Source: Burkholderiaceae bacterium
GTDB lineage: Bacteria > Pseudomonadota > Gammaproteobacteria > Burkholderiales > Burkholderiaceae
Direction of reading: 5' to 3'
Length of the DNA stretch: 12,713 nucleotides
NCBI GenBank assembly: GCA_947472645.1
Contig: CANJBQ010000066.1
Coordinates: forward strand, 1-12,713
Made by a program: the position numbers and the translations under genes. The notes under the pieces were generated by a model. It did no database searches, was not told where the DNA came from, and was given only the letters and a program-made list of their open reading frames with translations. Shown in pieces: positions 192 to 12,713 of the stretch. Position 1 is the stretch's first letter. Each line of letters starts with the position of its first letter.

Positions 192-496
192 CTAGAAAAT
201 ATCTATTTCTTCTTTTTAATAGTGGTTAGTCTTGGATTCTCGATGAGTGTTATTAGTACGAAAAGAATAGCTGCAAAAGAGAGAAAAATTCGTGAGGAGC
301 TTAGAAGAGTACAAAATATTGACTTTGAAAGCTACCCTCAATAGTTTCAGAAGTGGCTCCTAGGAATGAGTCAGCTTAATTGGGATATTAAAAGATTAGA
401 TATGGATGTATTAAGACCAAGTTCAATATAAGAAGAGATTCTAGTAGAGACATCAGAAGAAATGAAATTAATTTTTAATAGGGTTTGTAGAGAAAA

Positions 497-2990: not shown

Positions 2991-4034
2991 CTAAGCCCCT
3001 AAATTGATTAACGTTTGAGCATTAATTTTTTTAAGTTGATTAGCTACTAAATCAAGGATGCCTTGCCTAAAAATACTTTTAGTTTGAGGAGATTTTAGAT
3101 AAGTGTATTCAAGATGAGGTATTCCACCTCTTTTTCGTTTAAAGTCACCCGCACCCGAGCTGTAATTTAGCAAGACTTGATTATGTTTTGCGTAATTGTA
3201 TATAGATGCAAATAGCACTCTATAAGAACCTTCTATAGAATTGTCTGGATCGTATCCAAGAGCGGGAACGGTCAACGTTTCTCCTGAACGACATAACAAT
3301 CCAAACGACAGGATTTGGCCTTGAGCATCCTTAATCAAAAGACAAGACATTAATTTTTGATTAATGACATCATCAAAAAAATTGATTGTATATTGAGGAT
3401 TTAATAGAGAATGTTTCTCAAGATAAATTTTTTTGTAGAGATGGTGAATTTTCGTCAAACTCTCGATATCTAATTCGGTGCAAATATCAATCTGTACAGC
3501 TGATTTTTTTAAAAGACCAAGATCACGCTTTAAGTGTGATGGAGTGGATATTTTCCCATTGCGAAAATCAAATTCATAAATCACTCGAGATGGGATACCT
3601 TTAAACCCAAGTGTATCTAAGTGCTCAATAAGCGTTTTATGGCGATGAGGCAAGATATTTCTAATACCAGCAAAATAAGTGGGATAAGTATTCATCATTT
3701 TGCTTGCAATATTGGGGATTTCTTTTTCTTGCTCAGTGGACCAAATGGATGTGGAAATAGGGTAGTTCCCAATGAACACCGTTTTATCGATTCCTAAGAA
3801 ATAAGAAAGTCTTCCCAGAAAGCTAATAGATAAGGCACTAAGAGGCATATGCCTGCATTCATGGGCAAGGTAGTCAAACCAAGCGCTTCTGGGTGAGTTT
3901 ATATAGCTAGCATTCTTCTGACGCAAGGGAGAGGCAATGCTTATGGGTAATTGAGTCTCTCCCCGCCAAATAAGTGTGGCAGAGGCATTGCTAACCCAAT
4001 TATTAACTTCAACACTGGGCCACGCTGAGATCAT
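2991..4034 (-). CDS. GNAT-fold acyltransferase of the FemAB / CelD-BcsL-like (Acetyltransf_6) type
   Basis: 347 aa. The C-terminal block ALGYDPDNSIEGSYRVLFASIYNYAKHNQVLLNYSSGAGDFKRKRGG matches the GYDP...Y...L...I..A......(D)F..G...(Y/F)K...G signature I recall for CelD/BcsL-like acyltransferases. It starts 14 nt after the stop of the BtaA-like gene, so the two probably form an operon. Confidence 0.6.
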   Translation of the reverse strand: MISAWPSVEVNNWVSNASATLIWRGETQLPISIASPLRQKNASYINSPRSAWFDYLAHECRHMPLSALSISFLGRLSYFLGIDKTVFIGNYPISTSIWSTEQEKEIPNIASKMMNTYPTYFAGIRNILPHRHKTLIEHLDTLGFKGIPSRVIYEFDFRNGKISTPSHLKRDLGLLKKSAVQIDICTELDIESLTKIHHLYKKIYLEKHSLLNPQYTINFFDDVINQKLMSCLLIKDAQGQILSFGLLCRSGETLTVPALGYDPDNSIEGSYRVLFASIYNYAKHNQVLLNYSSGAGDFKRKRGGIPHLEYTYLKSPQTKSIFRQGILDLVANQLKKINAQTLINLGA

Positions 4035-4048
4035 ATGATTTTGTTTAA

Positions 4049-5299
4049 TTACGCTACAAGCTCATAGAGGTGAAAACCACCATAAATGGCAGAACGATCC
4101 TCATGAATGAGTAGGTCAGACTTTATATGATTTCGCTTCCAACGCCGATTTAATTGATCTCCTATTGCTATTTCAATTGGAGATTGGGAGCCCGCAGTTC
4201 TAAAAATAATCCTTGCAGCAGGGTTGGCTGTGCGAGTGATTTCCGTCCATAGAGTAGAAATCTCTTCAGCTGTCATCCAATCTTGGGCATCTAAAAGCAC
4301 TACCGCATCAACTGAATTTGCGGGCATTCTTTTGAGAGCATCTAGTACATTGTTTTGTTCTATCGATAAATTCCCAATATTATTACGAATCACCTCAAAA
4401 TACTGTTCTTGAAGGTAAAGAGGCTTATTACTTGCATTAGTATGGTCGTAGCGTCTGCCAAATGCCTGATAAGCAAAATAATTGTTATTGATGTTATCAA
4501 CAGTCGCCAACTTTCTTGCGCGCTCTTTGAGTACCTGCGCCATGTTTTCTGGGCGATTCTCACAAAGACTAGCATGTTGACTGGGTGGAATTCCGAGATT
4601 ATAAAGGGCGAGTGGGCTACTCATTATCGCTTTTAATAATCTTGAGTCAAAAATTTTGGCAACGTTCTCATCAAACCATGTGCCTTGAGCTTCTATAGAA
4701 GTCTGTTGCAAAATTTCGTCTAATTTGACACGATACAGTTTTGCGCCAAAGTGAATAACACCAATCAGGTTGCCTAGTAGTCCATATTTGTAAAAGCCTT
4801 TTTCAAACATTCGAATGCGCTCAAATCCTTTAATTCCACCTTCCCAATAATTTCGCGTCGCTTGGTCAAGATGAGGAGACAAAACTTGATGGTAGATTCG
4901 TGGATTATTGATTGATTTTGCTTCGCCAAAGAATTTATAAAAGTCTTTGTACTCTAAACGCTTAATAGCCTCGATTTTCAGATTTCCAAGGGCAACATGT
5001 GCATGGTTTAAGTCGACAGCAGTAATTTTTTTGGGGCTTACTGTTAAGTAAGATAGAGCATTACAACCACCAGAAGCGATAGTAATCAGATGATCAGTCG
5101 GTTGAAGGTTTAGTGCTTTTAGGTCAACGACTGGATCTTCCCAGATTTGGGGGTAAACCAGCCGCTCAAACCAATAAGCAAATATTCGATCATGAAGTGA
5201 AAACTTTTTCTTTTTTGCATATACAGCATCTTTTAGTAACTGTTTAGAACGCGTTAAATTTGATTCTGGAAGTGTAGAAGTTTTGTCCATAGATTTCAT
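4049..5299 (-). CDS. BtaA-family protein (DUF3419; S-adenosylmethionine:diacylglycerol 3-amino-3-carboxypropyl transferase-like)
   Basis: 416 aa. The N-terminal ERLVYPQIWEDPVVDLKAL followed by ITIASGGCNALSYL matches the hallmark YPQ(I/C)WEDP and SGGCN motifs of BtaA as I recall them from Rhodobacter sphaeroides. Confidence 0.8.
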   Translation of the reverse strand: MKSMDKTSTLPESNLTRSKQLLKDAVYAKKKKFSLHDRIFAYWFERLVYPQIWEDPVVDLKALNLQPTDHLITIASGGCNALSYLTVSPKKITAVDLNHAHVALGNLKIEAIKRLEYKDFYKFFGEAKSINNPRIYHQVLSPHLDQATRNYWEGGIKGFERIRMFEKGFYKYGLLGNLIGVIHFGAKLYRVKLDEILQQTSIEAQGTWFDENVAKIFDSRLLKAIMSSPLALYNLGIPPSQHASLCENRPENMAQVLKERARKLATVDNINNNYFAYQAFGRRYDHTNASNKPLYLQEQYFEVIRNNIGNLSIEQNNVLDALKRMPANSVDAVVLLDAQDWMTAEEISTLWTEITRTANPAARIIFRTAGSQSPIEIAIGDQLNRRWKRNHIKSDLLIHEDRSAIYGGFHLYELVA

Positions 5300-5683: not shown

Positions 5684-5710
5684 TACTCCACTCTTCGGAG
5701 TATTCTTTTC
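5684..5710 (+). terminator. Candidate intrinsic terminator
   Basis: TACTCC (5684-5689), a 7-nt loop, GGAGTA (5697-5702), then TTCTTTTC. The stem is short (6 bp). Confidence 0.4.
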
Positions 5711-5770
5711 GATCGCCCAAACCCCAAATAGAAATTAAACTACAAGCGTCCAGTAACAATACGCTTGTTG

Positions 5771-6988
5771 ATGAATAACTTAAAGTTTCTTTTTCAAACC
5801 AATAGCCCACAAATACCCAAACCCCTCACGATTCTCGACAATAGAATCACCTTGTTCAAGAGATCTAATAGCAATCAATGGCAATGCCGTTTCAAATTAG
5901 ACTCTGGATCGTGGCATACCGCCAGTACCCATACTGATCAAACTGCTGAAGCTACTACCAAAGCCATTGAAATCTATGAGCAGGTCAGATACCGTGTGGC
6001 CAATGACCTAGCCATCAAGAACAGGAACTTCAGATCCGTAGCAGTTGAGGAGTTGGAATCACTGAGAGGTGTCCATAGAGAACTTCGTTCTAAGCAAACC
6101 ATCAATGACTACATCTTTGTATTAGAAAAGTATCTAATCCCATTCTTCGGCAGATATCCAGTTCGCGAAATAAACCAACAGTTAATCGATGATTTTGATA
6201 GTTGGCGAATTTCGGAGATGGGGCGAGTAGCCAAGTTCTCCACACAGCGTCATCATGCAAGTGCTTTTAACCGTGTGCTAAAGCGAGCTAAAAGTTCGGG
6301 ATTACTCAACACCTTCGATGACGTCATATCGCTGAATGTTGACGGTGATAGAGGTGAAACTAGACCCGCTTTTAGCCGAGAGGAAATTGATCAGTTATTG
6401 GCTTTTATGCCTGAGTGGGAAATTAAGGTTAGACGTGATCGTACTGAAAGATTTCACGCGATGGCTAGGTTATGTAGGTGCTATGTAGAGTTTCTTTTAT
6501 ACACAGGAATTCGCACAGGTACAGAGAGCATGCCCATCCGTTGGAAGAATCTCCATTGGCACTGGATCGATCAAAAGCGATATTTGAGGGTATGGGTATC
6601 AGGCAAGACAGGACCTAGATACTTGATTGCTAGGAATGAATTGATCCCTAGTTTGGAGAGATTGGTTACTTGGCAGGCATCAGGTGAGAACTTGGACTCA
6701 GTGATCGAGAAACGAATAGACCGTAAGATCTTTGTATTCCCTAAGGGTGATCAGCCCTATAGCTTAAATGGTGTGTTTGAAAGGTTGATGGAGGAGTCTG
6801 GGTTACTGGAAGACCATACTGGCAAAAAAAGAACGCTCTATAGCCTACGGCATACCTATGCCACATTCGCCTTAGCTGATGGCATTGACATACATACATT
6901 AGCTAGGCAAATGGGTACCAGTGTGGGTATGATCGAAAAGCATTACAGTAAATTGACCCCCATGATGAGTGCGGAGAAGTTGGCTTGA
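5771..6988 (+). CDS. Tyrosine recombinase / phage-type integrase (about 405 aa)
   Basis: Catalytic signature is present: LLYTGIRTGTE (Arg I), VSGKTGPR (Lys), LYSLRHTYAT (Y-x-x-R box) and GTSVGMIEKHYSKL (nucleophile Tyr). The ORF track starts at TTG 5765; I prefer ATG 5771. There is no clear SD. Confidence 0.9.
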   Translation: MNNLKFLFQTNSPQIPKPLTILDNRITLFKRSNSNQWQCRFKLDSGSWHTASTHTDQTAEATTKAIEIYEQVRYRVANDLAIKNRNFRSVAVEELESLRGVHRELRSKQTINDYIFVLEKYLIPFFGRYPVREINQQLIDDFDSWRISEMGRVAKFSTQRHHASAFNRVLKRAKSSGLLNTFDDVISLNVDGDRGETRPAFSREEIDQLLAFMPEWEIKVRRDRTERFHAMARLCRCYVEFLLYTGIRTGTESMPIRWKNLHWHWIDQKRYLRVWVSGKTGPRYLIARNELIPSLERLVTWQASGENLDSVIEKRIDRKIFVFPKGDQPYSLNGVFERLMEESGLLEDHTGKKRTLYSLRHTYATFALADGIDIHTLARQMGTSVGMIEKHYSKLTPMMSAEKLA

Positions 6989-6994
6989 ACAGAT

Positions 6995-7024
6995 AAAAAT
7001 TGAACATTGTTCCATTCGGAACAA
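6995..7024. repeat. Core-site-like repeat, copy 1 (AAAAATTGAACATTGTTCC-ATT-CGGAACAA)
   Basis: 19/19 plus 8/8 nt are identical to 8358-8388 in the same orientation. It contains TTGTTC-N6-GAACAA inverted arms and starts 6 nt after the integrase stop codon. Confidence 0.9.
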
Positions 7025-7025
7025 C

Positions 7026-7050
7026 AAAACTACCCCGAAGGGCAGTTTTT
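7026..7050. terminator. Bidirectional intrinsic terminator between convergent genes
   Basis: AAAA-CTACCC-CGAA-GGGCAG-TTTTT. The stem has one mismatch and is flanked by an A-run and a T-run, so it reads as hairpin plus U-tract on both strands. It directly abuts the stop of the 306-aa gene (7052). Confidence 0.6.
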
Positions 7051-7051
7051 C

Positions 7052-7972
7052 TTACACATTCTCAGCAAATCGCTCTTCGCTAGCCTGTTTGACATCATCA
7101 GTGGTCTTGTAAACAGCATTTGCTTCAACACCAAGATCCCACATGTCAGGTCTTAACGCTCCTTTTGTGTAGAAACGTTTAGCATCCTCATAACGCTGTT
7201 CCTTACGACGATCCACAATCTTCATCATGGCATCCGATAACACAAACTTAATCGGAAGCCTTGCTGATACTTCGTTTAAAGCCTTTTGTATCGCTCGCAC
7301 ATCAGTGTCATCAGGAATCTGAGTAAACATCATCTTGCCGAACACATAACCCACATTCTTTTTGTCATACGACAGTGGCTCGACAATCCGCTTAATCTCT
7401 TTTGTAGAGTTCAGCAAGTAGTCCAAGCGTTTGCCCTTCAGTGTTGCTAGAGACTGCCCATTTTTGACCATTTCGTCAAAATGATCAGCAGGTATCTGCG
7501 TAATCAAGTAGATGTTGGTCCACGTTGAAGGAAGCTGATCTGCGTATTGAATAAATCGAGGATACAGCTTGCCGATTGTGCAGAACTTACGAATCGAGCT
7601 ACTGTAGTCAGTGAATCCAATCTCTTTGCAGAAATCTCTAAACTGAAAGCCATCGAGACTGCGACTAGCTTCATAGACAACACGACACATCTCTAACGTA
7701 GAACGAGCCGTTTTCTCTGCACTAGCCTTGAAAGCACTCACATACTCCTCCTGCGTCTTAGCAACGATGTTCTGATCATCTTCCGAAGACGCTTCAAGAC
7801 TGACCTCCACCTGATAACTAAGATTTGCTTCGTCTTGATTATCTTCAAGCTGATCCGTAGCTTCATCCTCAGTGATGAAGTTGACTGGTGCCTGAATTGC
7901 TTCAAGACGAATTGAAGCTAAGTTTTGGGTCTCTGTAGAAACAACATCTTTTGTTACATTTGCGTTTTGCAT
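7052..7972 (-). CDS. hypothetical protein (306 aa) with an acidic N-terminal third and a helix-rich central region
   Basis: Strong SD (AAAGGAG, 8 nt spacing) and ATG start. The N-terminus is rich in D/E/Q (EDEATDQLEDNQDEA...SSEDDQ). The centre, LEMCRVVYEASRSLDGFQFRDFCKEIGFTDYSSSIRKFCTIGKLYPRF, loosely recalls DUF3102-like plasmid/phage proteins. That recollection is from memory and unverified. Confidence 0.75.
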   Translation of the reverse strand: MQNANVTKDVVSTETQNLASIRLEAIQAPVNFITEDEATDQLEDNQDEANLSYQVEVSLEASSEDDQNIVAKTQEEYVSAFKASAEKTARSTLEMCRVVYEASRSLDGFQFRDFCKEIGFTDYSSSIRKFCTIGKLYPRFIQYADQLPSTWTNIYLITQIPADHFDEMVKNGQSLATLKGKRLDYLLNSTKEIKRIVEPLSYDKKNVGYVFGKMMFTQIPDDTDVRAIQKALNEVSARLPIKFVLSDAMMKIVDRRKEQRYEDAKRFYTKGALRPDMWDLGVEANAVYKTTDDVKQASEERFAENV

Positions 7973-8071
7973 CGTAATTCTCCTTTAGTAAGTCAGCCTA
8001 GATACCCTGGCAGGATTGCCTTGTTAGAAAAATATCTGTGCTGATGGAGTGAACTGTATCGCTGAGTGCAT

Positions 8072-8122
8072 TTATTGCGCAAATGTACTTTTTTTGTGTT
8101 GTGTAAATGATTTGCGCAATAA
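8072..8122. promoter_or_regulatory. 13-bp inverted repeat pair centred on the palindrome TTGCGCAA (candidate operator overlapping a candidate promoter of the 306-aa gene)
   Basis: TTATTGCGCAAAT (8072-8084) and ATTTGCGCAATAA (8110-8122) are perfect reverse complements, 25 nt apart. On the minus strand, TTGCGC (8082-8077), an 18-nt spacer and TACAGT (8058-8053) form a plausible -35/-10 pair about 80 nt upstream of the ATG at 7972. Confidence 0.4.
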
Positions 8123-8160
8123 TTCCTTGGTTGCCAGTAAAGGGTTTGCGGTCGATTTGG
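8112..8160. repeat. 49-nt iteron-like direct repeat, copy 1
   Basis: TTGCGCAATAATTC...TGCGGTCGATTTGG. 41/49 positions are identical to 8217-8265, and both 14-nt ends are perfect. The period is 105 nt. Confidence 0.85.
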
Positions 8161-8216
8161 AGTTTAAAAAGTGTGGTTTTTTGATAGGGTAAAAATAGCA
8201 GTGTGGTAAAAAAGAC

Positions 8217-8265
8217 TTGCGCAATAATTCGATGGTCTCCTATAAAGGCTCTGCGGTCGATTTGG
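8217..8265. repeat. 49-nt iteron-like direct repeat, copy 2
   Basis: See copy 1. AGTGTGGT also recurs between the two copies (8170-8177 and 8200-8207). Confidence 0.85.
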
Positions 8266-8357
8266 TCATTAGAAAATCAATCTAAAAAGGACTGATTTAA
8301 GCTCTTTGAAAAATATTTTATAAATATTTATTTTTGTGCTTTTTCTGTCAAAAAACG

Positions 8358-8388
8358 AAAAATTGAACATTGTTCCGATGCGGAACAA
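8358..8388. repeat. Core-site-like repeat, copy 2 (AAAAATTGAACATTGTTCC-GATG-CGGAACAA)
   Basis: Direct copy of 6995-7024. It contains TTGTTC-N7-GAACAA and ends 1 nt before the stop codon (8390-8392) of the 188-aa recombinase. On the minus strand it is followed by a T-rich tract, so it may also act as that gene's terminator. Confidence 0.9.
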
Positions 8389-8389
8389 G

Positions 8390-8956
8390 TTAAATGAGTT
8401 CTATGGCATTACGTTTCATATCATCGTTGGTGTCGATATATTTCTGTGTAACAGCAATTGATTTATGGCCGGCTAAACTGGCTAAGACTCTGACAGAGAT
8501 ACCTTTATTCGCCAAGGTCGTAATGAAGTTTCTTCTTCCTGAATGACTACTGGCTCCGCTGATACCTGCACCACGATACATGGTAAAGAACCATACACAT
8601 AGGCCATTCGCTGTAAATCCGCCTTTTCTATGTGTGTAAAAGAAGGGGAGTTGTGGGTAAAACGTATATCTTGTTTTGAAGTAATTGGCTAATTCGATAC
8701 GAAGTTTTGTTGGTAGAAAGACCGTTCTTGGCTGACCACCTTTGGTTTGTTCTGCACTCAAGCGTATTTCTGCTTTAATCGTGCCATCTTCATTCACAAC
8801 ATCACCCATTTTGAGTGCGGCTATTTCGCCTACACGTAGTCCTGACCAAAAACTGGTGAGAAAGATTGCACGATTTCGCTCTGGTAACTTTCTGGTTGAT
8901 ACATAGCGTAATACTTGATCGAGTTCTGCTTGAGTGAGTGTTTTTGCTTGAGCCAT
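8390..8956 (-). CDS. Small tyrosine recombinase (188 aa), catalytic domain only, FimB/FimE-sized
   Basis: Full catalytic set: WSGLRVGEI (Arg I), TKGGQPR (Lys), HSGRRNF (H-x-x-R) and GHKSIAVTQKY (His, Tyr). Only about 20 aa precede the catalytic domain, so there is no N-terminal core-binding domain. The SD is AAGGAAAAG. Confidence 0.9.
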   Translation of the reverse strand: MAQAKTLTQAELDQVLRYVSTRKLPERNRAIFLTSFWSGLRVGEIAALKMGDVVNEDGTIKAEIRLSAEQTKGGQPRTVFLPTKLRIELANYFKTRYTFYPQLPFFYTHRKGGFTANGLCVWFFTMYRGAGISGASSHSGRRNFITTLANKGISVRVLASLAGHKSIAVTQKYIDTNDDMKRNAIELI

Positions 8957-9014
8957 TTGTCTTTTCCTTTATTAAGATAAAACTACTATTAGTATGTTTC
9001 CTTTTGCTGTTTTG

Positions 9015-9169
9015 GACGACCTGTATTTAAAAAGTAAAGATCTTCCAAGAATCAACGACTTAATACACTTGGCTAAGAAAAGTACGATTTCCTTAGCCAA
9101 AAATATCTATATGTATTTATGTTCTCTTGTCGTCTTTTGACGACGAATCTTTAACTTAAGTAGTCGTTG
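9015..9169. promoter_or_regulatory. Cluster of (G/A)ACGAC motifs and inverted repeats upstream of the small recombinase gene
   Basis: Motif copies: GACGAC 9015-9020, AACGAC 9054-9059, GTCGTC-TTTT-GACGAC 9129-9144, GTCGTT 9163-9168. The 8-bp inverted repeat CAACGACT (9053-9060) / AGTCGTTG (9162-9169) encloses about 100 bp. That enclosed stretch also holds TTGGCTAAG-N14-CTTAGCCAA (9069-9100). Confidence 0.4.
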
Positions 9170-9177
9170 TTTAAAAC

Positions 9178-9256
9178 AAGCCCTACAAGCAATTTGACGA
9201 GCATCTAAGTATTCGACACTTAGCTTTATTGAGATCTTTGCTTATAGGGCTTTTTT
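9178..9256. terminator. Nested stem-loop with flanking T/A runs; probable terminator of the 9269-9724 gene, possibly bidirectional
   Basis: AAGCCCTACAAGC (9178-9190) pairs with GCTTATAGGGCTT (9240-9252), giving 13 bp with 1 mismatch. An inner hairpin is CTAAGT/ACTTAG (9205-9210 / 9218-9223). On the plus strand TTTTTT follows; on the minus strand GTTTTAAA follows. Confidence 0.45.
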
Positions 9257-9268
9257 GAGGTGGATTTA

Positions 9269-9724
9269 CTACTTGTGATTAAGGTCTACATTCGTCGCAA
9301 TAAACACTGGTTTATTGGCACCTCCGGATTTGCAGTGATGTGCTCGTAAATCCCATTGCTCATTGGTTCCATTTTGAACATCAATAACTTCGATATGTAG
9401 TTCACCTGTGGATTGCAGATAGATACAGTAGCCATCGACAGAAGTCTTGGTTTTGGTCAGTGGTTCGTAATGGATGATCCAAGATAAAACCAATCCCTCA
9501 ACAGAGCTGACATTACATTGATCGAGTTTCTTTAATACTTCGATTTGTGCATCCGATTTAGCAGTATGCTGAAACTGCTCATAATCATAAAAGTCTACGA
9601 GGTACTTCTGATTGGGATTGTGTAGTTCCACAGATCCGTTATAAATGGCTCGCCGAAATAATCCTTTGCCATAGGTGGTGTTGTACTTCTCATTGATAAA
9701 ACCTCTGATTGCTATTTCTCTCAT
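9269..9724 (-). CDS. hypothetical protein (151 aa from ATG 9724; the track's 157-aa version starts at TTG 9742)
   Basis: AAGGAG lies 6 nt upstream of the ATG at 9724-9722, so I prefer that start. No motif recognised. Confidence 0.6.
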   Translation of the reverse strand: MREIAIRGFINEKYNTTYGKGLFRRAIYNGSVELHNPNQKYLVDFYDYEQFQHTAKSDAQIEVLKKLDQCNVSSVEGLVLSWIIHYEPLTKTKTSVDGYCIYLQSTGELHIEVIDVQNGTNEQWDLRAHHCKSGGANKPVFIATNVDLNHK

Positions 9725-9785
9725 ATCTTTCTCCTTGTTCAATTTGATTGAGTTCTCGTTGCTAGTCGCTGGGTTGGTTACAGAG

Positions 9786-9924
9786 AGATCTCAAAAAGAT
9801 CAGTTGCAGTGAGTGGTGTTGCAGATCTCAAAAAAGGAGTTGCCGAGTAAGGTTGCTTGGTGAGTAACCAAGTCAGAGTTACTCATTTGCCACCCGAGTA
9901 ACTACTCAAACTATACTAAGTAAC
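9786..9924. promoter_or_regulatory. Array of short repeats in the divergent intergenic region
   Basis: AGATCTCAAAAA occurs twice (9786-9797 and 9823-9834). GAGTAAC-type motifs lie at 9845 (GAGTAAG), 9862-9868, 9878-9884 (inverted), 9896-9902 and 9918-9924 (AAGTAAC), spaced about 17-22 nt apart. One 7-bp inverted pair is separated by 9 nt. Confidence 0.5.
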
Positions 9925-10006
9925 AGCAACTTCTTTTTATCTTCTTGCGACCTACACTGTGTAACCAAGCAACTCGCAAAAGTATTTATGCCTCGTTAAC
10001 AAAATC

Positions 10007-10019
10007 CACGAATTTCGTG
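10007..10019. promoter_or_regulatory. Perfect palindrome CACGAA-T-TTCGTG, candidate operator upstream of the 146-aa gene
   Basis: 13-nt palindrome about 100 nt upstream of the ATG at 10120, just after a TTAACA -35-like hexamer. No convincing -10 element was found. Confidence 0.3.
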
Positions 10020-10119
10020 CTCAAAATGAACAGAAAAGCAGATATTGGCAAAAAGAGGTCGACCAAATCCGAAATCAGGTAATACATTAAGTGTGCCCAT
10101 CAACTAATAGGAGAATGAA

Positions 10120-10560
10120 ATGAGCACATTAAGTACATTGAAGTTAGTGGCAGTCAAAAAACCAACCCATATGCCGGTGATAGTGATACGCAGAAACAAG
10201 TTATCTAGCAAACTCTGGGAGCAGATCCAATTAGCCAAAAGCCAATTAACTGGCACCCCATTTGTGGTGACAAAATACAAAAGCATTGTTGATCGAGAAA
10301 CAGGACTTCGTAAACAGGTGGAACTGCCAAAACGCATCAAGCCATGGTGGTTTGTATCGGATTCAGGCAAAGTTTGTTTTTCGGTACGTTATGGGTCATG
10401 GACGATTGAACTAGCCAAGGGTAAGCCCAGCGTAGAAGTGGCAAGTGCTGACGACTTGGTCAAGGCATTAGAAACTGTGAAACACGCAGTCGAAGCAGGG
10501 GAGTTAGATACTGAGATTGAGAAAGCAAGTGCGAGCTTAAGGTCAGGCTTTAAGCGATAG
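10120..10560 (+). CDS. conserved hypothetical protein (146 aa), a type I recall seeing beside integrases in proteobacterial genomic islands
   Basis: AGGAGA lies 6 nt before the ATG. The pattern RRNKLSSKLWEQIQLA...KRIKPWWF...GKVCFSVRYG...ELAKGK...AVEAGELD matches a recurrent island-borne family from memory. The family name is uncertain and unverified. Confidence 0.7.
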   Translation: MSTLSTLKLVAVKKPTHMPVIVIRRNKLSSKLWEQIQLAKSQLTGTPFVVTKYKSIVDRETGLRKQVELPKRIKPWWFVSDSGKVCFSVRYGSWTIELAKGKPSVEVASADDLVKALETVKHAVEAGELDTEIEKASASLRSGFKR

Positions 10561-10569
10561 GGTCTATAT

Positions 10570-10592
10570 AAGCGTCCAGAAATTGGACGCTT
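10570..10592 (+). other. 9-bp perfect hairpin without a U-tract between the 146-aa and 101-aa genes
   Basis: AAGCGTCCA-GAAAT-TGGACGCTT, followed by AACTCTC. It is not a canonical terminator. It could be an attenuator, a processing site or a binding site. Confidence 0.4.
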
Positions 10593-10636
10593 AACTCTCA
10601 CAGGGGCGCCTAGACTAAGAATTCATAAATAATTAC

Positions 10637-10942
10637 ATGAACAAATATGTAGCCAGTATTCGTATTAAAGGATCCTCAGTTCAAACTATAGTGTTTGCTG
10701 ATAGTCAATTACATGCGCGACTTATCCTTCAGTATCAATTTGGCATGGATTCATTACAGTCTGTGCCTATTCAGGTTAATGAGGCCAGCACTATTAAACC
10801 TATGTCTCCAGAGCAGGCTAGGATTAATGCTTTAAAGCAATATAAAAAGAATGCCACTCAAGCTATCAAAACTGAACGTGATCGGCAAAAGATACATCAC
10901 GCACAACAGCAAATTACCCAAGCGATCAATCCAAAGAACTAA
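10637..10942 (+). CDS. hypothetical protein (101 aa)
   Basis: ORF with an ATG start and a weak SD, on the same strand as and 76 nt downstream of the 146-aa gene. The C-terminal half is Q/K-rich and looks helical. Confidence 0.5.
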   Translation: MNKYVASIRIKGSSVQTIVFADSQLHARLILQYQFGMDSLQSVPIQVNEASTIKPMSPEQARINALKQYKKNATQAIKTERDRQKIHHAQQQITQAINPKN

Positions 10943-11152: not shown

Positions 11153-12277
11153 CTAGAATTTTTTGGAGAATTTAATTAAGAACAAATTACTTAATTGGGA
11201 ATATACGGCAGTTGATTTCCATGTATAGCTGAAGCTTATTATGGAATTTGTCTCTGGTAATGGGATTGCATAATAAGGTGTAAAAGATAAGTAACGCATT
11301 CTGTTACCATCTGAGTTGGGTGTGTTAACAGAATAGAGGTAGCCTGATATAGACGTTGGTGTTCCAAGATAGTCATCAGTTACTTGATTAACATGGATAG
11401 TATTGATGCCGAAAATACCCACTTCAGGAACTTTTGTTAAACCACTTAGTTCAGTAATAACAACATTACCACTACTATAGGTTGAATTGGAATTTGTTGA
11501 ATTGTGTTGATAAGAAATTCTCCCAGCCAATGCTAATTTGGAATCATTGTAGATTACAGCCGCAGTTGGTGTGTATGACCAATAGCCCAAACCGATATTG
11601 ACTGGTGTTGTTACGTTATAATTACCTGTTGGGGCTGTAACTCCAAAACCTAAAACAAATTTAGTACGATCGATGTTTTTTGACCAGGCACCTTCGGTAA
11701 CTAAATCTCCAACACCAGAATCTGAGGCGCTATTCGCAGAATTTAAATTAATAATATATTTTTGTGCTAAAGAGTTAGCGGCATTAGAGCAGTTACTCCC
11801 AGACAATGTACTACAAGTGACATTTGAAATTGAAGATAAACTAATATTTGGTGATCGCGTTAAATCTAAGATAGGAATTGAAGTAGATAAGTTAAATTCC
11901 CCTCCCAAAAATGGATCTTTAAATGAATACCCACTAACCAGATTAAATCCTGTAATTTTTTGTGAGAAATTTGCATTAATATTTAAAACACCAGAAACAG
12001 TTCCTGAAACAGGGGAGCCAATTGGAGTTTTTGAAACTATTGTTGGGTTTATGTTGGTTCCATCACCAAATGCCACCCCTGTTACTTCCCCCCTTAAAGC
12101 AGATATAGACCCAAAAAATCCATACGAAGCAGAATCTACAGAGGTAGCAATATCAGCACCGAGTTTGCCAATTTGTGAGTAATGAATTCTTTGATTTTCT
12201 AATGCAGAAACAGTGAAATTACATAATATTAGTGTGAAAAATATTAAAGACTTTATTCGACGAAAATTTATAAGCAT
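11153..12277 (-). CDS. Outer-membrane beta-barrel protein (374 aa)
   Basis: N-terminal signal peptide: basic RRIK, a hydrophobic core, and a likely cleavage site at VSA|LE. The body is rich in S/T/N/G with alternating hydrophobic residues. The terminal residue is Phe (...FSKKF), typical of OMP beta-barrels. The family is unconfirmed; it may be MetA/phenol-degradation-like. Confidence 0.7.
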   Translation of the reverse strand: MLINFRRIKSLIFFTLILCNFTVSALENQRIHYSQIGKLGADIATSVDSASYGFFGSISALRGEVTGVAFGDGTNINPTIVSKTPIGSPVSGTVSGVLNINANFSQKITGFNLVSGYSFKDPFLGGEFNLSTSIPILDLTRSPNISLSSISNVTCSTLSGSNCSNAANSLAQKYIINLNSANSASDSGVGDLVTEGAWSKNIDRTKFVLGFGVTAPTGNYNVTTPVNIGLGYWSYTPTAAVIYNDSKLALAGRISYQHNSTNSNSTYSSGNVVITELSGLTKVPEVGIFGINTIHVNQVTDDYLGTPTSISGYLYSVNTPNSDGNRMRYLSFTPYYAIPLPETNSIISFSYTWKSTAVYSQLSNLFLIKFSKKF

Positions 12278-12302: not shown

Positions 12303-12713
12303 TTAGTTAGGCTTACAAAACTTAGATTGATGATTTTTTATACCACTAAAAACTAGATATGATGTCATCAAGATACTTAATGTAAAAAATATGAATGTTA
12401 CTAATGTAAATGAATTATAAAGCAAGTAAATAGTCAAGGAGATATAAATCACACCTGTTGCAATTGAGCTATAAAGTGCCCATGATATGTCAAATAAAAG
12501 ACCGATTGATTCAGATAGGCGCAATAACCCAAGAGAGAAGAAAACTAGCGCAATTTGAAAAATTACTTCACTATTTTGTGACTGAAACAAAGATAATAAG
12601 AAAGTTAAAATGACATCTTGATTTTTAAAAATAAATTTGAAGGAATTATTGAAATCCATATCACCTGAGGTTTCAGAGATATAGTAAAAAACACTCGCTA
12701 AGCCAAAAGCCAT
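12303..12713 (-). CDS. Small integral membrane protein (at least 136 aa, about four TM segments); its ATG is the last 3 nt of the window, so the true start may lie outside
   Basis: Several long hydrophobic segments. It ends 25 nt upstream of the OMP gene on the same strand, so the two probably form an operon. Confidence 0.55.
   Translation of the reverse strand: MAFGLASVFYYISETSGDMDFNNSFKFIFKNQDVILTFLLSLFQSQNSEVIFQIALVFFSLGLLRLSESIGLLFDISWALYSSIATGVIYISLTIYLLYNSFTLVTFIFFTLSILMTSYLVFSGIKNHQSKFCKPN

What the first reader, a model, noticed from the sequence alone, without database searches (positions are those of the whole stretch)
6995..8388. One-gene 1.36 kb cassette bracketed by direct copies of a core-site-like repeat, each abutting the 3' end of a tyrosine recombinase gene
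AAAAATTGAACATTGTTCC (19/19), then 3-4 nt, then CGGAACAA (8/8) occurs at 6995-7024 and 8358-8388 in the same orientation.

Each copy contains TTGTTC-N6/7-GAACAA. That is the inverted-arm, 6-8 bp spacer geometry of tyrosine-recombinase core sites.

Copy 1 begins 6 nt after the stop of the 407-aa integrase (+). Copy 2 ends 1 nt before the stop of the 188-aa recombinase (-).

Conceptually deleting one copy and the intervening DNA leaves two convergent recombinase genes sharing a single site.

The intervening DNA is self-contained. It has its own bidirectional terminator, one strongly translated 306-aa gene, an operator/iteron region and an AT-rich tract. This is what site-specific insertion of a small circular cassette, or an integrated mini-replicon, would look like.

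I know of no described system with this layout.

Caveat: the two spacers differ (CATTCG vs CGATGCG). This argues against a recent simple attL/attR pair.
Basis: partly seen in the sequence, partly recalled or inferred. Interest (0 to 1): 0.72.

Follow-up and report, generated by a model that had tools for sequence, protein, structure and literature searches.

The report
Conserved palindrome flanking an island gene
The repeat is real, but it is two copies of a short conserved DNA palindrome that always travels with one unknown gene inside a widespread family of freshwater-bacterial genomic islands, not the scars of a gene cassette inserted between two recombinase genes.

Summary
AAAAATTGAACATTGTTCC, then 4-5 nt, then GGAACAA occurs at 6995-7024 and 8358-8388 in the same orientation (0.00 expected by chance). 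Each copy abuts a tyrosine-recombinase stop codon.

The "inserted cassette" reading does not hold. The order DUF6641 – 151-aa – 188-aa recombinase – slot gene – ~405-aa integrase is a conserved backbone of genomic islands in Polynucleobacter and other freshwater Burkholderiales. No empty arrangement (integrase, single site, recombinase) turned up in any search.

The invariant core TGTTC-N6-GAACA follows the terminator of every 306-aa-family gene examined (12 of 12 lineages). That includes contexts without either recombinase next to it.

The palindrome is absent from the slot in three lineages. There an unrelated ~330-aa gene sits between the same two recombinases. So the palindrome tracks the 306-aa gene, not the recombinases.

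The arms never covary and the spacers vary freely, which fits a double-stranded protein-binding site.

Window copy 2 is the only N7 variant among 31 sites and doubles as a terminator-like hairpin.

Best reading (about 0.45): the palindrome is the cognate binding site of the module's own DNA-binding protein, probably a replication or maintenance module.

Recombination at the sites is not excluded (about 0.15-0.2). Copies in two other lineages share identical spacers, and one mosaic breakpoint maps to copy 1.

The parts
5713..5770 (+). Integrase-proximal end of the conserved island backbone. It consists of TCGCCCAAAC followed by an AAGCGT...ACGCTT hairpin (5744-5766) just upstream of the integrase start.
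   Evidence: Homology to L002, L007/L008, L010, L014, L019, L020, L022, L030, L032 and L036 stops at this motif, and the DNA beyond it differs in each. Coordinates.
5771..6988 (+). 405-aa tyrosine integrase (int405), reading inward from the backbone end.
   Evidence: Pfam Phage_integrase 2.1e-06 and PHROG 1 integrase 6.6e-31. Called as 405 aa in public assemblies. R248, K279, R360 and Y392 are present.
6995..7024 (.). Palindrome copy 1: AAAAATTGAACA + TTGTTCC-ATTC-GGAACAA, with core TGTTC-N6-GAACA. This is the family-typical copy, lying directly beyond the terminator of the 306-aa gene.
   Evidence: A homologous palindrome lies 32-126 nt after the aligned end of every 306-aa-family gene whose 3' end is on the contig, in 12 non-redundant loci.
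7026..7049 (.). Bidirectional intrinsic terminator AAAACTACCCCGAAGGGCAGTTTT, between the convergent integrase and 306-aa genes.
   Evidence: RNA folds of -15.7 (+) and -23.4 (-) kcal/mol, z -4.0 and -5.6. A stem-improving A>G change at 7032 occurs in variants.
7052..7972 (-). 306-aa protein of an uncharacterised family (p306). It is the slot gene of the backbone. It is helical, with an HTH-like stretch around residues 108-135.
   Evidence: No Pfam, NCBIfam or PHROG hit. 140 homologues, all unnamed or 'hypothetical', and 758 representatives by profile search. AF2 pLDDT 70; no Foldseek match in PDB or BFVD.
7973..8095 (-). 5' UTR and promoter region of p306, with the RBS AAGGAG (7980-7985 on +) and the first TTGCGCAA palindrome (8075-8082).
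   Evidence: Only 4 variable positions in 123 nt across variants.
8096..8275 (.). Two copies of a ~105-nt spaced direct repeat (8096-8170 and 8201-8275, 77% identical). Each copy carries TTGCGCAATAA and the motif GCGGTCGATTT (8148-8158 and 8253-8263).
   Evidence: (D1, D8). The motif AAATCGNCNGC.AAGCC is single-copy upstream of the slot gene in L010, L014, L019, L020, L022 and L030.
8291..8357 (.). A+T-rich tract (79% A+T). It includes a promoter-like TTGACA-17-AATATT on the minus strand (8351-8323) and the motif TTTTTCTGTCAAAAAACG (8340-8357).
   Evidence: This is the fastest-diverging intergenic segment among variants, with 14 variable positions in 67 nt.
8358..8388 (.). Palindrome copy 2: AAAAATTGAACA + TTGTTCC-GATGC-GGAACAA, with core TGTTC-N7-GAACA. 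It lies 1 nt beyond the rec188 stop codon. It is an atypical N7 variant and a terminator-like hairpin for rec188.
   Evidence: It is the only site with a 5-nt inner spacer among 31. 8-bp stem, -9.1 kcal/mol, and flagged as terminator-like on the minus strand. 0 variable positions in 31 nt among variants.
8390..8956 (-). 188-aa tyrosine recombinase consisting of the catalytic domain only (rec188).
   Evidence: Pfam Phage_integrase 1.4e-21 over residues 6-178. All NCBIfam Xer, integron and invertase scores are far below their cut-offs. R41, K72, H138, R141, H164 and Y173 are present. More than 3400 homologues.
9269..9724 (-). 151-aa backbone protein of unknown function (p151), upstream of rec188 on the same strand.
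   Evidence: Syntenic in all relatives. No family hit.
10120..10560 (+). DUF6641 backbone protein, followed by the hairpin AAGCGTCC-N7-GGACGCTT (10570-10592).
   Evidence: Pfam DUF6641 8.7e-12 and PHROG 31551. Syntenic in all relatives. Hairpin coordinates.
10637..10942 (+). 101-aa protein (p101). Homology with the L002 variant fades near 10893, which is the approximate far limit of the shared block.

Best explanation
The two repeats are copies of a conserved 16-18-bp palindrome with invariant TGTTC-N6-GAACA. It is the cis-acting partner of the 306-aa-family gene.

That gene occupies a swappable slot between a catalytic-domain-only tyrosine recombinase and a ~405-aa integrase. The slot lies in a conserved five-gene backbone of integrative genomic islands of freshwater Burkholderiales.

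The palindrome is most likely bound as double-stranded DNA by a dimer of a module-encoded protein, probably the 306-aa protein itself. Gene and site are inherited as one unit, in the way an initiator travels with its origin or a ParB with its parS.

By its position next to the inward-facing integrase, the module is most likely the island's replication or maintenance module. Alternative families in the slot, one of them followed by an AAA+ loader-like gene, point the same way.

In the window lineage a second copy sits at the other edge of the module. It has drifted to an N7 spacer, and together with its T-rich tail it serves as the terminator hairpin of the recombinase gene.

What is shown and what is inferred:
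- Shown: conservation of the palindrome, its association with the gene, the lack of covariation, and the synteny.
- Inferred: which protein binds it, and that the module is for replication or maintenance.
For: Synteny:
- DUF6641 – p151 – rec188 – slot gene – int405 recurs in Polynucleobacter genomes and many metagenome contigs.

Association with the 306-aa family:
- A TGTTCC-N4-GGAACA palindrome lies 32-126 nt beyond the aligned end of the 306-aa-family gene in 12 of 12 non-redundant loci.
- In 196 kb there are 31 sites, against 0.86 in shuffles.
- It is also present in L040 and L042, where int405 is not adjacent. In L040 rec188 is 4-5 kb away.
- It is absent from the slot in L030/L031, L032-L035 and L036. 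There an unrelated gene family fills the slot (no tblastn hit; hhalign probability 0.2). Yet rec188 there is 69-77% identical to the window's and int405 is 50-56% identical.
- Rec188 of the palindrome-bearing L017 is only 49% identical to the window's.

DNA site rather than RNA hairpin:
- T2-C6 and G13-C16 are invariant in 18 sites, and 0 pairs change on both sides.
- Spacers vary freely.
- The neighbouring true terminators have unrelated stems in different lineages.

Constraint:
- 1 variable position in 61 nt of the two copies, against 12-21% in the neighbouring repeat and A+T-rich DNA.

Module character:
- In L036 the alternative slot gene is followed by an AAA+ protein hitting AAA, DNA_pol3_delta2 and IstB-type profiles.
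- The window has direct repeats plus an A+T-rich tract upstream of the gene.
- Tycheposon-type islands are defined with an inward-facing integrase and a small replication module beside it.
Against: - No binding has been shown.
- The 306-aa protein matches no known DNA-binding, initiator or partition family by sequence or fold. The HTH assignment rests on a medium-confidence model and the sequence pattern.
- The promoter region of the gene uses different palindromes (TTGCGCAA), so autoregulation through TGTTC sites is not evident in the window.
- Extra palindromes occur away from any 306-aa gene: L014 1900 and 12466, L019 13672, L020 16023, and L036 9383, which has no 306-aa gene on the locus.
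- Only three alternative-slot lineages were sampled.
- Identical spacers in the two copies of L017 (ATCT) and of L042 (AAAT) are what recombination partners would show.
Confidence: 0.45

Rival explanations
1. First reader's model, generalised. The palindromes are crossover sites (TGTTC arms, 6-bp overlap) for rec188 or int405. Two direct copies would allow the module to be excised as a circle or exchanged between islands.
For: - The geometry fits tyrosine-recombinase core sites.
- A copy sits 3-8 nt from the rec188 stop codon in three separate lineages: the window, L017/L018 and L042/L044.
- In two of these the two copies have the same spacer in the same orientation: ATCT/ATCT and AAAT/AAAT.
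- The same 306-aa allele (0-1 differences over about 1.1 kb) is joined to at least three integrase alleles. The switch from about 15% to about 0.1% divergence falls inside 6970-7031 (L002) and 6956-7031 (L006), an interval that contains copy 1.
- Small variable genes are found exactly between the palindrome and the integrase stop codon in L013, L014, L019 and L020.
- Rec188 has a complete catalytic set.
Against: - Presence of the palindrome follows the 306-aa family, not either recombinase.
- The window copies have N6 against N7 spacers with different sequence, and this is stable in variants up to 9% diverged.
- No empty, deleted or circular-junction form appeared in any look-up.
- Most lineages have a single copy.
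- There is no divergence breakpoint at copy 2 in the L002 comparison.
- The breakpoint near copy 1 is equally a gene boundary.
- Only 5 bp of each arm are conserved, which is short for a recombinase binding element.
Confidence: 0.17
2. The repeats are simply intrinsic terminators or RNA hairpins placed after the two minus-strand genes. They are duplicated because terminators of neighbouring genes are often alike.
For: - On the minus strand both copies are flagged as terminator-like: stems of 8-9 pairs, then TGTTCAATTTTT.
- Hairpin energies are -7.8 and -9.1 kcal/mol with z about -3.
- Copy 2 is the only hairpin after rec188.
- The 19-nt identical part equals the descending stem plus the T-rich tail.
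Against: - In relatives the palindrome is usually not followed by a T-tract, and it sits after an already strong terminator.
- The stem sequence is invariant across lineages with no compensatory change, whereas real terminators nearby differ completely in sequence.
- Palindromes also occur upstream of and inside ORFs (L040, L026).
Confidence: 0.1
3. The palindrome is bound by some other factor: a host regulator of Burkholderiales, or another backbone protein such as p151 or DUF6641. It would serve as an operator, silencer or insulator at module borders.
For: - Extra copies lie next to GCGTC...GACGC hairpins near island ends and upstream of other genes, including a locus without a 306-aa gene (L036 9383; L014, L019, L020).
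- Conserved in-frame copies occur inside p151 and int405 genes of some lineages.
Against: - p151 and DUF6641 are present in the alternative-slot lineages that lack the slot palindrome.
- The site follows 306-aa homologues into unrelated contexts.
Confidence: 0.15

Closest known systems
Tycheposons and PICI-like integrative islands (Hackl et al., bioRxiv 10.1101/2020.12.28.424599; reported in Methylophilaceae in PMC10872708)
   Same: - An inward-facing tyrosine integrase sits at one end.
- A small swappable module lies beside it.
- Variable cargo lies on either side.
- Relatives sit at tRNA genes with direct repeats of the tRNA 3' part, and in tandem arrays. L014 and L016 sit at tRNA-Arg(TCT) with a 45-nt repeat.
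   Different: - No recognised replication hallmark gene (primase, helicase, polymerase), no excisionase and no packaging gene.
- A second, catalytic-domain-only recombinase is part of the backbone.
- The integrase was not placed in the tycheposon clade.
- The window itself has no tRNA.
Initiator or partition protein with its cis site directly 3' of the gene (from my own knowledge: SaPI/PICI rep-ori, ColE2 rep-ori, P1 parB-parS)
   Same: A gene of about 300 aa is always followed within about 100 nt by a short conserved binding-type palindrome, and the two are inherited as a unit. In the window, repeats and an A+T-rich tract also lie nearby.
   Different: - The protein matches none of these families by sequence or fold.
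- There are usually only one or two sites, not iteron arrays.
- Function was not tested.
Xer/dif-type sites and pdif modules of Acinetobacter plasmids (from my own knowledge)
   Same: Short inverted arms lie around a 6-bp centre. In some lineages a pair of sites brackets a small gene module.
   Different: - Only 5 bp per arm are conserved, and the sequence is unrelated to dif.
- Rec188 scores 53-57 bits against XerC/XerD models whose cut-offs are 330-335.
- The site follows the cargo gene rather than the recombinase.
Integron cassettes with attC (from my own knowledge)
   Same: A gene is followed by an imperfect palindrome, next to a tyrosine recombinase gene.
   Different: - No GTTRRRY core sites, no attC bulges and no arrays.
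- The cassette has its own promoter.
- Integron-integrase model scores are 19-35 bits against a cut-off of 265.
- The integrase is convergent with the cassette genes, not divergent.

Membership tests
attL/attR pair left by tyrosine-recombinase insertion of a circular cassette | The two sites share an identical overlap (spacer) region | tested here: not met
   The spacers are CATTCG (N6) and CGATGCG (N7) in the window. The same difference is present in L002, L004, L005 and L029.
attL/attR pair left by tyrosine-recombinase insertion of a circular cassette | Unoccupied (single-site) loci exist in relatives | tested here: not met
   None was found among contigs anchored on p306, rec188, int405 or the site pattern, nor among 10 genome loci. 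Sampling is limited.
attL/attR pair left by tyrosine-recombinase insertion of a circular cassette | The site co-occurs with its recombinase | tested here: not met
   The slot palindrome is absent in L030, L032 and L036 despite rec188 and int405 being there. It is present in L040 and L042 without an adjacent int405.
Xer/dif-like site (including pdif modules) | 11-6-11 site bound by XerC/XerD-type recombinases | tested here: not met
   Only TGTTC and GAACA are invariant. Rec188 is far below the XerC, XerD, XerA and XerS cut-offs and lacks an N-terminal core-binding domain (Pfam match covers residues 6-178 of 188).
Integron cassette / attC | IntI-type integrase and attC with R''/L''/L'/R' core sites | tested here: not met
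   Integron-integrase models score 19 and 35 bits against a cut-off of 265. The site has no GTTRRRY cores.
Intrinsic (Rho-independent) terminator | Stable stem-loop followed by a T-tract; the stem is kept by pairing, not by sequence | tested here: inconclusive
   The window copies pass a simple scan on the minus strand. In relatives a T-tract is mostly absent, and there are 0 compensatory changes in 18 sites. This is a plausible secondary role for copy 2 only.
Iteron-type replicon (Rep, iterons, A+T-rich region) | Rep of a known initiator family and three or more 17-22-bp iterons next to an A+T-rich region | tested here: inconclusive
   No Rep family or winged-helix fold match. There are two ~105-nt repeats and three TTGCGCAA palindromes rather than an iteron array. 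An A+T-rich tract is present (79% A+T).
Tycheposon-like / tRNA-targeting integrative island | Inward-facing site-specific integrase at one end | tested here: met
   The backbone ends 58 nt upstream of the int405 start at a conserved motif, in more than 10 different contexts.
Tycheposon-like / tRNA-targeting integrative island | Integration at a tRNA gene with direct repeats of its 3' part | tested here: inconclusive
   This is seen for islands containing the backbone in L010, L014 and L016 (tRNA-Arg, 45-46-nt repeats). There the integrase end is 2-3 kb from the tRNA. The window holds no tRNA.
Tycheposon-like / tRNA-targeting integrative island | Shared hallmark replication genes and a lineage-specific integrase clade | not tested
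   No primase, helicase or polymerase domain was found in the backbone. Integrase phylogeny against the tycheposon clade was not done.

The most novel reading that the evidence does not exclude
The TGTTC-N6-GAACA palindromes are crossover sites for the catalytic-domain-only recombinase rec188, perhaps helped by p151 or by the 306-aa protein as a DNA-binding specificity subunit. If so, the central module of these islands could be excised as a small circle, or swapped between islands, by site-specific recombination. That would be a module-exchange system lodged between two tyrosine recombinase genes.
Probability: 0.13. Interest if true: 0.75.

Novelty: new variant of a known kind. Interest (0 to 1): 0.36.

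Why it matters
As first interpreted, the finding would have been a new kind of cassette system. The evidence instead points to something more ordinary: a cis-acting protein-binding palindrome that belongs to one module of an integrative island.

What remains useful:
- A compact, apparently undescribed five-gene island backbone is defined: DUF6641, a 151-aa protein, a 188-aa catalytic-only tyrosine recombinase, a swappable slot, and a 405-aa integrase.
- This backbone is very common in Polynucleobacter and other abundant freshwater Burkholderiales. The small recombinase alone has more than 3400 homologues.
- A sharply defined and easily testable gene-site pair (306-aa family with TGTTC-N6-GAACA) could give a function to a protein family that has no annotation.
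- These islands carry variable cargo, so knowing how their core works bears on gene flow in freshwater bacterioplankton.

Tried and rejected
- Megablast of 5700-9100 against PLSDB plasmids: no match.
- tRNA scan of the window: none.
- PADLOC: only a sub-threshold hit of p306 to PDC-S32 (E 3.6e-4). Not used.
- Function of p306:
  - Pfam, NCBIfam and PHROGs: nothing.
  - PDB profile search: nothing below E 0.35.
  - AF2 model plus Foldseek against PDB and BFVD: no hit below E 0.01, TM at most 0.28.
  - Profile search of 1.8 billion representatives found 758 relatives. These include about 200-aa proteins sharing only the central domain. Ten of them had no Pfam domain.
- Contexts of two such distant relatives: contigs too short, or no DNA available.
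- Site pattern and protein searches in IMG/VR: no site, no p306 relative, and only a 37% identical rec188 relative. So there is no evidence that the element is packaged.
- LexA, Cheo box, parS, dif, FRT and attC were compared from memory with the palindrome. None fits, and none was tested formally.
- I first read 5713-10893 as a self-contained 5.2-kb mobile element. Polynucleobacter loci show the backbone embedded in larger tRNA-bounded islands, with cargo on both sides, so I dropped that claim.
- The far end of the block, and short GATCG / TAGG identities at the two ends, were looked at. They are too weak to call.
- L007's 33-nt divergent contig end at window 8325 may be an assembly artefact and was given no weight.
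- The host organism of the window was not determined. Cluster look-up gave no names.
Full report
**1. The observation**

The 19-mer AAAAATTGAACATTGTTCC occurs exactly twice in the window, at 6995-7013 and 8358-8376 on the + strand (family D13). Allowing two mismatches gives no further match. 200 dinucleotide-preserving shuffles gave a mean of 0.00 matches. Each copy continues into GGAACAA, after ATTC in copy 1 and GATGC in copy 2. The cores are therefore TTGTTCC-N4-GGAACAA and TTGTTCC-N5-GGAACAA.

Copy 1 starts 6 nt after the integrase stop codon (6986-6988). Copy 2 ends 1 nt before the stop codon of the 188-aa recombinase (8390-8392, minus strand).

Each copy has three half-sites: GAACA, T, TGTTC, spacer, GAACA.

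- a bidirectional terminator at 7026-7049;
- the 306-aa ORF with AAGGAG before its ATG;
- two copies of a repeat spaced 105 nt apart at 8096-8275 (D1);
- three TTGCGCAA palindromes;
- a 79% A+T tract at 8291-8357.

**2. The genes**

- The upstream ORF is a tyrosine integrase. It most likely starts at the ATG at 5771 and is 405 aa (int405). Pfam Phage_integrase 2.1e-06; PHROG 1 6.6e-31.
- The 188-aa protein (rec188) is a tyrosine-recombinase catalytic domain with nothing in front of it. The Pfam match covers residues 6-178. R41, K72, H138, R141, H164 and Y173 are all present. Its scores against the XerC, XerD, XerA, integron-integrase and FimB-type invertase models are far below their cut-offs.
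- The 306-aa protein (p306) has no hit in Pfam, NCBIfam or PHROGs. It also has no hit in a PDB profile search. An AlphaFold2 model (pLDDT 70, helical core at residues 55-270) finds nothing in PDB or BFVD.
- p306 has 140 close homologues, all unnamed or 'hypothetical', several of them from Polynucleobacter genomes. A profile search finds 758 representatives.

**3. The genomic context is a conserved island backbone**

Contigs carrying the identical p306 (L001-L009) include L002. L002 is 93% identical to the window over 5713-10893 only, and has different DNA on both sides.

More distant p306 homologues were fetched from Polynucleobacter chromosomes and other Burkholiales assemblies. These are L010-L016 and L019-L023, with p306 50-62% identical. 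All show the same order:

DUF6641 – 151-aa protein – rec188 – p306-family gene – (small genes) – int405

The integrase end of this backbone is sharp. Homology stops at TCGCCCAAAYCC, 58 nt upstream of the integrase start in the window, in more than ten different contexts.

In Polynucleobacter the backbone lies inside larger islands bounded by 45-46-nt direct repeats of the 3' part of tRNA-Arg(TCT), with further elements in tandem.

So p306 is a core gene of an ancestral arrangement. It is not something inserted between two recombinase genes.

**4. The palindrome across the family**

In every locus where the 3' end of a p306-family gene is on the contig (12 non-redundant loci), a TGTTCC-N4-GGAACA palindrome lies 32-126 nt after the aligned end of the gene. 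It sits just beyond the gene's own terminator.

Across 16 non-redundant loci (196 kb) there are 31 such sites with at most one mismatch, against 0.86 in shuffles.

In an alignment of 18 sites, TGTTC and GAACA are invariant. The flanking and innermost positions vary on one side only. No pair shows a compensatory change. Spacers are free: ATTC, ATTT, ATAT, GAAT, ATCT, AAAT, TGGT, AGTC. The real terminators next to the palindrome have unrelated stems in different lineages.

This is the signature of a double-stranded DNA site read by a protein, not of an RNA hairpin.

A second copy a few nt after the rec188 stop codon is found in three lineages only:
- the window lineage (L001-L005, L029);
- L017/L018 (p306 67% identical, rec188 49-53%);
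- L042/L044 (p306 about 47%).

In the last two lineages the bracket also holds a divergent 245-270-aa gene. The Polynucleobacter lineages have none there.

L024 has two copies 43 bp apart after the gene. L040 has copies upstream of, inside and after the gene.

**5. Which gene does the palindrome go with?**

I anchored searches on rec188 rather than on p306. These gave L030/L031, L032-L035 and L036. All have the same backbone with both recombinases: rec188 is 69-77% identical to the window's and int405 is 50-56% identical.

In these loci the slot gene is a different family of 282-341 aa. The members are related to each other but not to p306. There is no tblastn hit and hhalign probability is 0.2. 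These loci have no TGTTC palindrome in the slot.

Conversely, L040 and L042 keep the palindrome after a p306 homologue although int405 is not adjacent. In L040 rec188 lies 4-5 kb away, in a different gene context.

Rec188 of L030, which has no slot palindrome, is closer to the window's (77%) than rec188 of L010 (72%) or L017 (49%), which do have palindromes.

The palindrome therefore tracks the p306 family and not either recombinase.

**6. Tests of the cassette model**

- Empty sites: none. All contigs carrying the window's int405 that extend far enough carry p306. All rec188-anchored contexts carry a slot gene.
- The exact extended site, TTGAACATTGTTCC-N3-6-GGAACAA, gave 0 hits in IMG/VR. It gave 3 hits in the metagenome collection:
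  - a 91% identical copy of the same element with both copies;
  - an L017-like contig;
  - one apparent chance hit in a marine contig.
- Spacers: the window copies differ in both length and sequence. The difference is kept in every variant, up to 9% diverged. Copy 2 is the only N7 site among the 31.
- Divergence profile against L002:
  - the integrase (5713-6969) is 13-18% diverged;
  - 6970-8271 is about 0.2% diverged;
  - a patch at 8272-8346 is 17% diverged;
  - 8347-9865 is about 1% diverged.
- There is thus a sharp breakpoint in 6970-7031, an interval that contains copy 1. L006 carries a different integrase allele and has its breakpoint in 6956-7031. There is no breakpoint at copy 2, and the recently shared block runs on through rec188 and p151.
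- This shows integrase alleles being reassorted at or near copy 1. That position is also a gene boundary, so it does not by itself prove site-specific exchange.

**7. The terminator alternative**

On the minus strand both window copies are flagged as terminator-like. They are hairpins of 8-9 pairs followed by TGTTCAATTTTT, with energies of -7.8 and -9.1 kcal/mol. Copy 2 is the only hairpin after rec188.

This is a plausible secondary role in this lineage. It would also explain why the identical 19-mer covers the descending stem plus the T-rich tail, and why the N7 change, which lengthens the stem to 8 pairs, is tolerated.

It cannot be the conserved role. Relatives mostly lack the T-tract, and the stem is conserved in sequence rather than in pairing.

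**8. The most likely mechanism**

I commit, at about 0.45, to the following. The palindrome is the cognate double-stranded binding site of a dimeric module-encoded protein, most likely p306 itself. Gene and site form one heritable unit, as in initiator-origin or ParB-parS pairs.

The module beside the inward-facing integrase is probably the island's replication or maintenance module. Three things fit this reading:
- non-homologous families alternate in the slot under a partly conserved upstream region (AAATCGNCNGC.AAGCC... and TTTTCG.ATTTTT motifs);
- in L036 the alternative slot gene is followed by an AAA+ protein hitting AAA, DNA_pol3_delta2 and IstB-type profiles;
- tycheposon-type islands are defined with a small replication module next to the integrase.

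Binding, and any replication role, are inferred and not shown.

Rival explanations:
- crossover site for rec188 or int405, about 0.17;
- terminator only, about 0.10;
- site for a host or other backbone protein, about 0.15.

**9. Comparison with known systems**

The closest known kind is the tRNA-targeting integrative island of the tycheposon/PICI type (10.1101/2020.12.28.424599; PMC10872708). It shares the inward-facing integrase, an adjacent small module, variable cargo and tandem accretion at tRNAs.

This backbone lacks any recognised replication, excision or packaging gene, and it has a second, catalytic-only recombinase. I did not test membership of the tycheposon integrase clade.

It fails the tested defining features of integron cassettes, Xer/dif modules and simple attL/attR pairs (see the membership table). 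A full-text search for DUF6641 found no paper. I found no description of this backbone.

**10. Verdict**

The repeat is real and functional-looking, but its meaning is more ordinary than proposed. It is a module-linked protein-binding palindrome present in two copies. It is not the footprint of a cassette insertion.

It is a new variant of a known kind of element. Interest is moderate, because the backbone is abundant in freshwater bacteria and the gene-site pair is directly testable.

Noticed in passing
L014 1729-1773 and 12642-12686; L010 2974-3019 and 11510-11555; L016 12642-12693: Islands containing the backbone in Polynucleobacter are bounded by 45-46-nt direct repeats of the 3' part of tRNA-Arg(TCT). 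In L016 a further element with a 345-aa integrase follows the truncated tRNA, giving a tandem array. Other loci (L019, L020, L022, L030, L036) have a tRNA-Phe(GAA) nearby.
   Followed up: partly
window 5713-5724 (and the equivalent ends in L002, L007, L010, L014, L019, L020, L022, L030, L032, L036): The integrase-side end of the backbone is the conserved motif (R)RTCGCCCAAAYCC. The DNA beyond it is unrelated in each context. The outer bases (TAGGTCGC in several loci) resemble the T-arm of tRNA-Arg, which may hint at the integrase's target core.
   Followed up: partly
window 5744-5766 and 10570-10592; L014 1927-1945 and about 12495-12515; L019 about 13640-13660; L020 about 16000; L036 about 9405-9425: Hairpins of the form (AA)GCGTC-N7-11-GACGC(TT) recur upstream of the integrase, after DUF6641, and next to extra TGTTCC-N4-GGAACA palindromes about 10 nt away near island ends. 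In L036 the hairpin and palindrome lie just outside the integrase end, on a locus without a p306 gene. This paired unit is unexplained.
   Followed up: partly
L030 5045-6070, L031 1007-2008, L032 6777-7772, L036 5543-6391: A second family of 282-341-aa proteins with no Pfam hit occupies the slot between rec188 and int405 in place of p306. In L036 it is followed by an AAA+ ATPase (6446-7159).
   Followed up: partly
L013 5930-6862, L036 4476-5408, L017 7040-7777, L042 3596-4408: An optional 245-310-aa gene of unknown function sits divergently upstream of the slot gene, on the opposite strand. The L013, L036 and L017 copies are distantly related to one another (22-27% identity). The L042 gene was not compared.
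   Followed up: no
L006 1-1399 against window 8152: A contig whose sequence is identical to the window from 6956 to 8152, apart from the change at 7032, carries only one of the 105-nt repeat units. It then continues into unrelated DNA with five small genes, some Cys-rich, instead of copy 2 and rec188. This could be a different element carrying the same module or an assembly chimera.
   Followed up: partly
window 8139-8160 and 8243-8264 (minus-strand reading AAATCGACCGCA.A.CCTTTA); L010, L014, L019, L020, L022, L030 upstream of the slot gene: A roughly 22-nt non-coding motif, AAATCG.C.GC.AAGCC(T)TTAT, is conserved upstream of the slot gene in lineages with either slot family. It is duplicated in the window. 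A second motif, TTTTCG.ATTTTT(G/C)TGTCAAG, also recurs. Its window version abuts copy 2 at 8340-8357.
   Followed up: no
L010 5775-5790, L020 6496-6511, L022 2936-2951 (inside p151); L020 9626-9641, L022 5803-5818, L036 8534-8549 (inside int405): Near-perfect TGTTC-N6-GAACA palindromes are conserved inside the coding sequences of p151 and int405 in some Polynucleobacter lineages. This could be coding conservation or extra binding sites.
   Followed up: no
window 8957-9271 and 9269-9724: Rec188 has no N-terminal core-binding domain. The 151-aa gene upstream on the same strand, separated by a 315-nt gap, is always present. It might supply DNA binding, but this was not tested.
   Followed up: no
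window 380-431 and 1406-1457: A 52-nt direct repeat (79% identical) lies upstream of, or overlapping the starts of, two ORFs (497-895 and 1432-1872) outside the backbone.
   Followed up: no
window 2991-5299 and 11153-12277: The flanking genes are a DUF3419 protein (E 1.3e-99) with an adjacent 347-aa unknown on one side, and a Phenol_MetA_deg outer-membrane-type protein on the other. L002 and L007 have different genes at these positions, so these may be island cargo rather than host core genes.
   Followed up: partly
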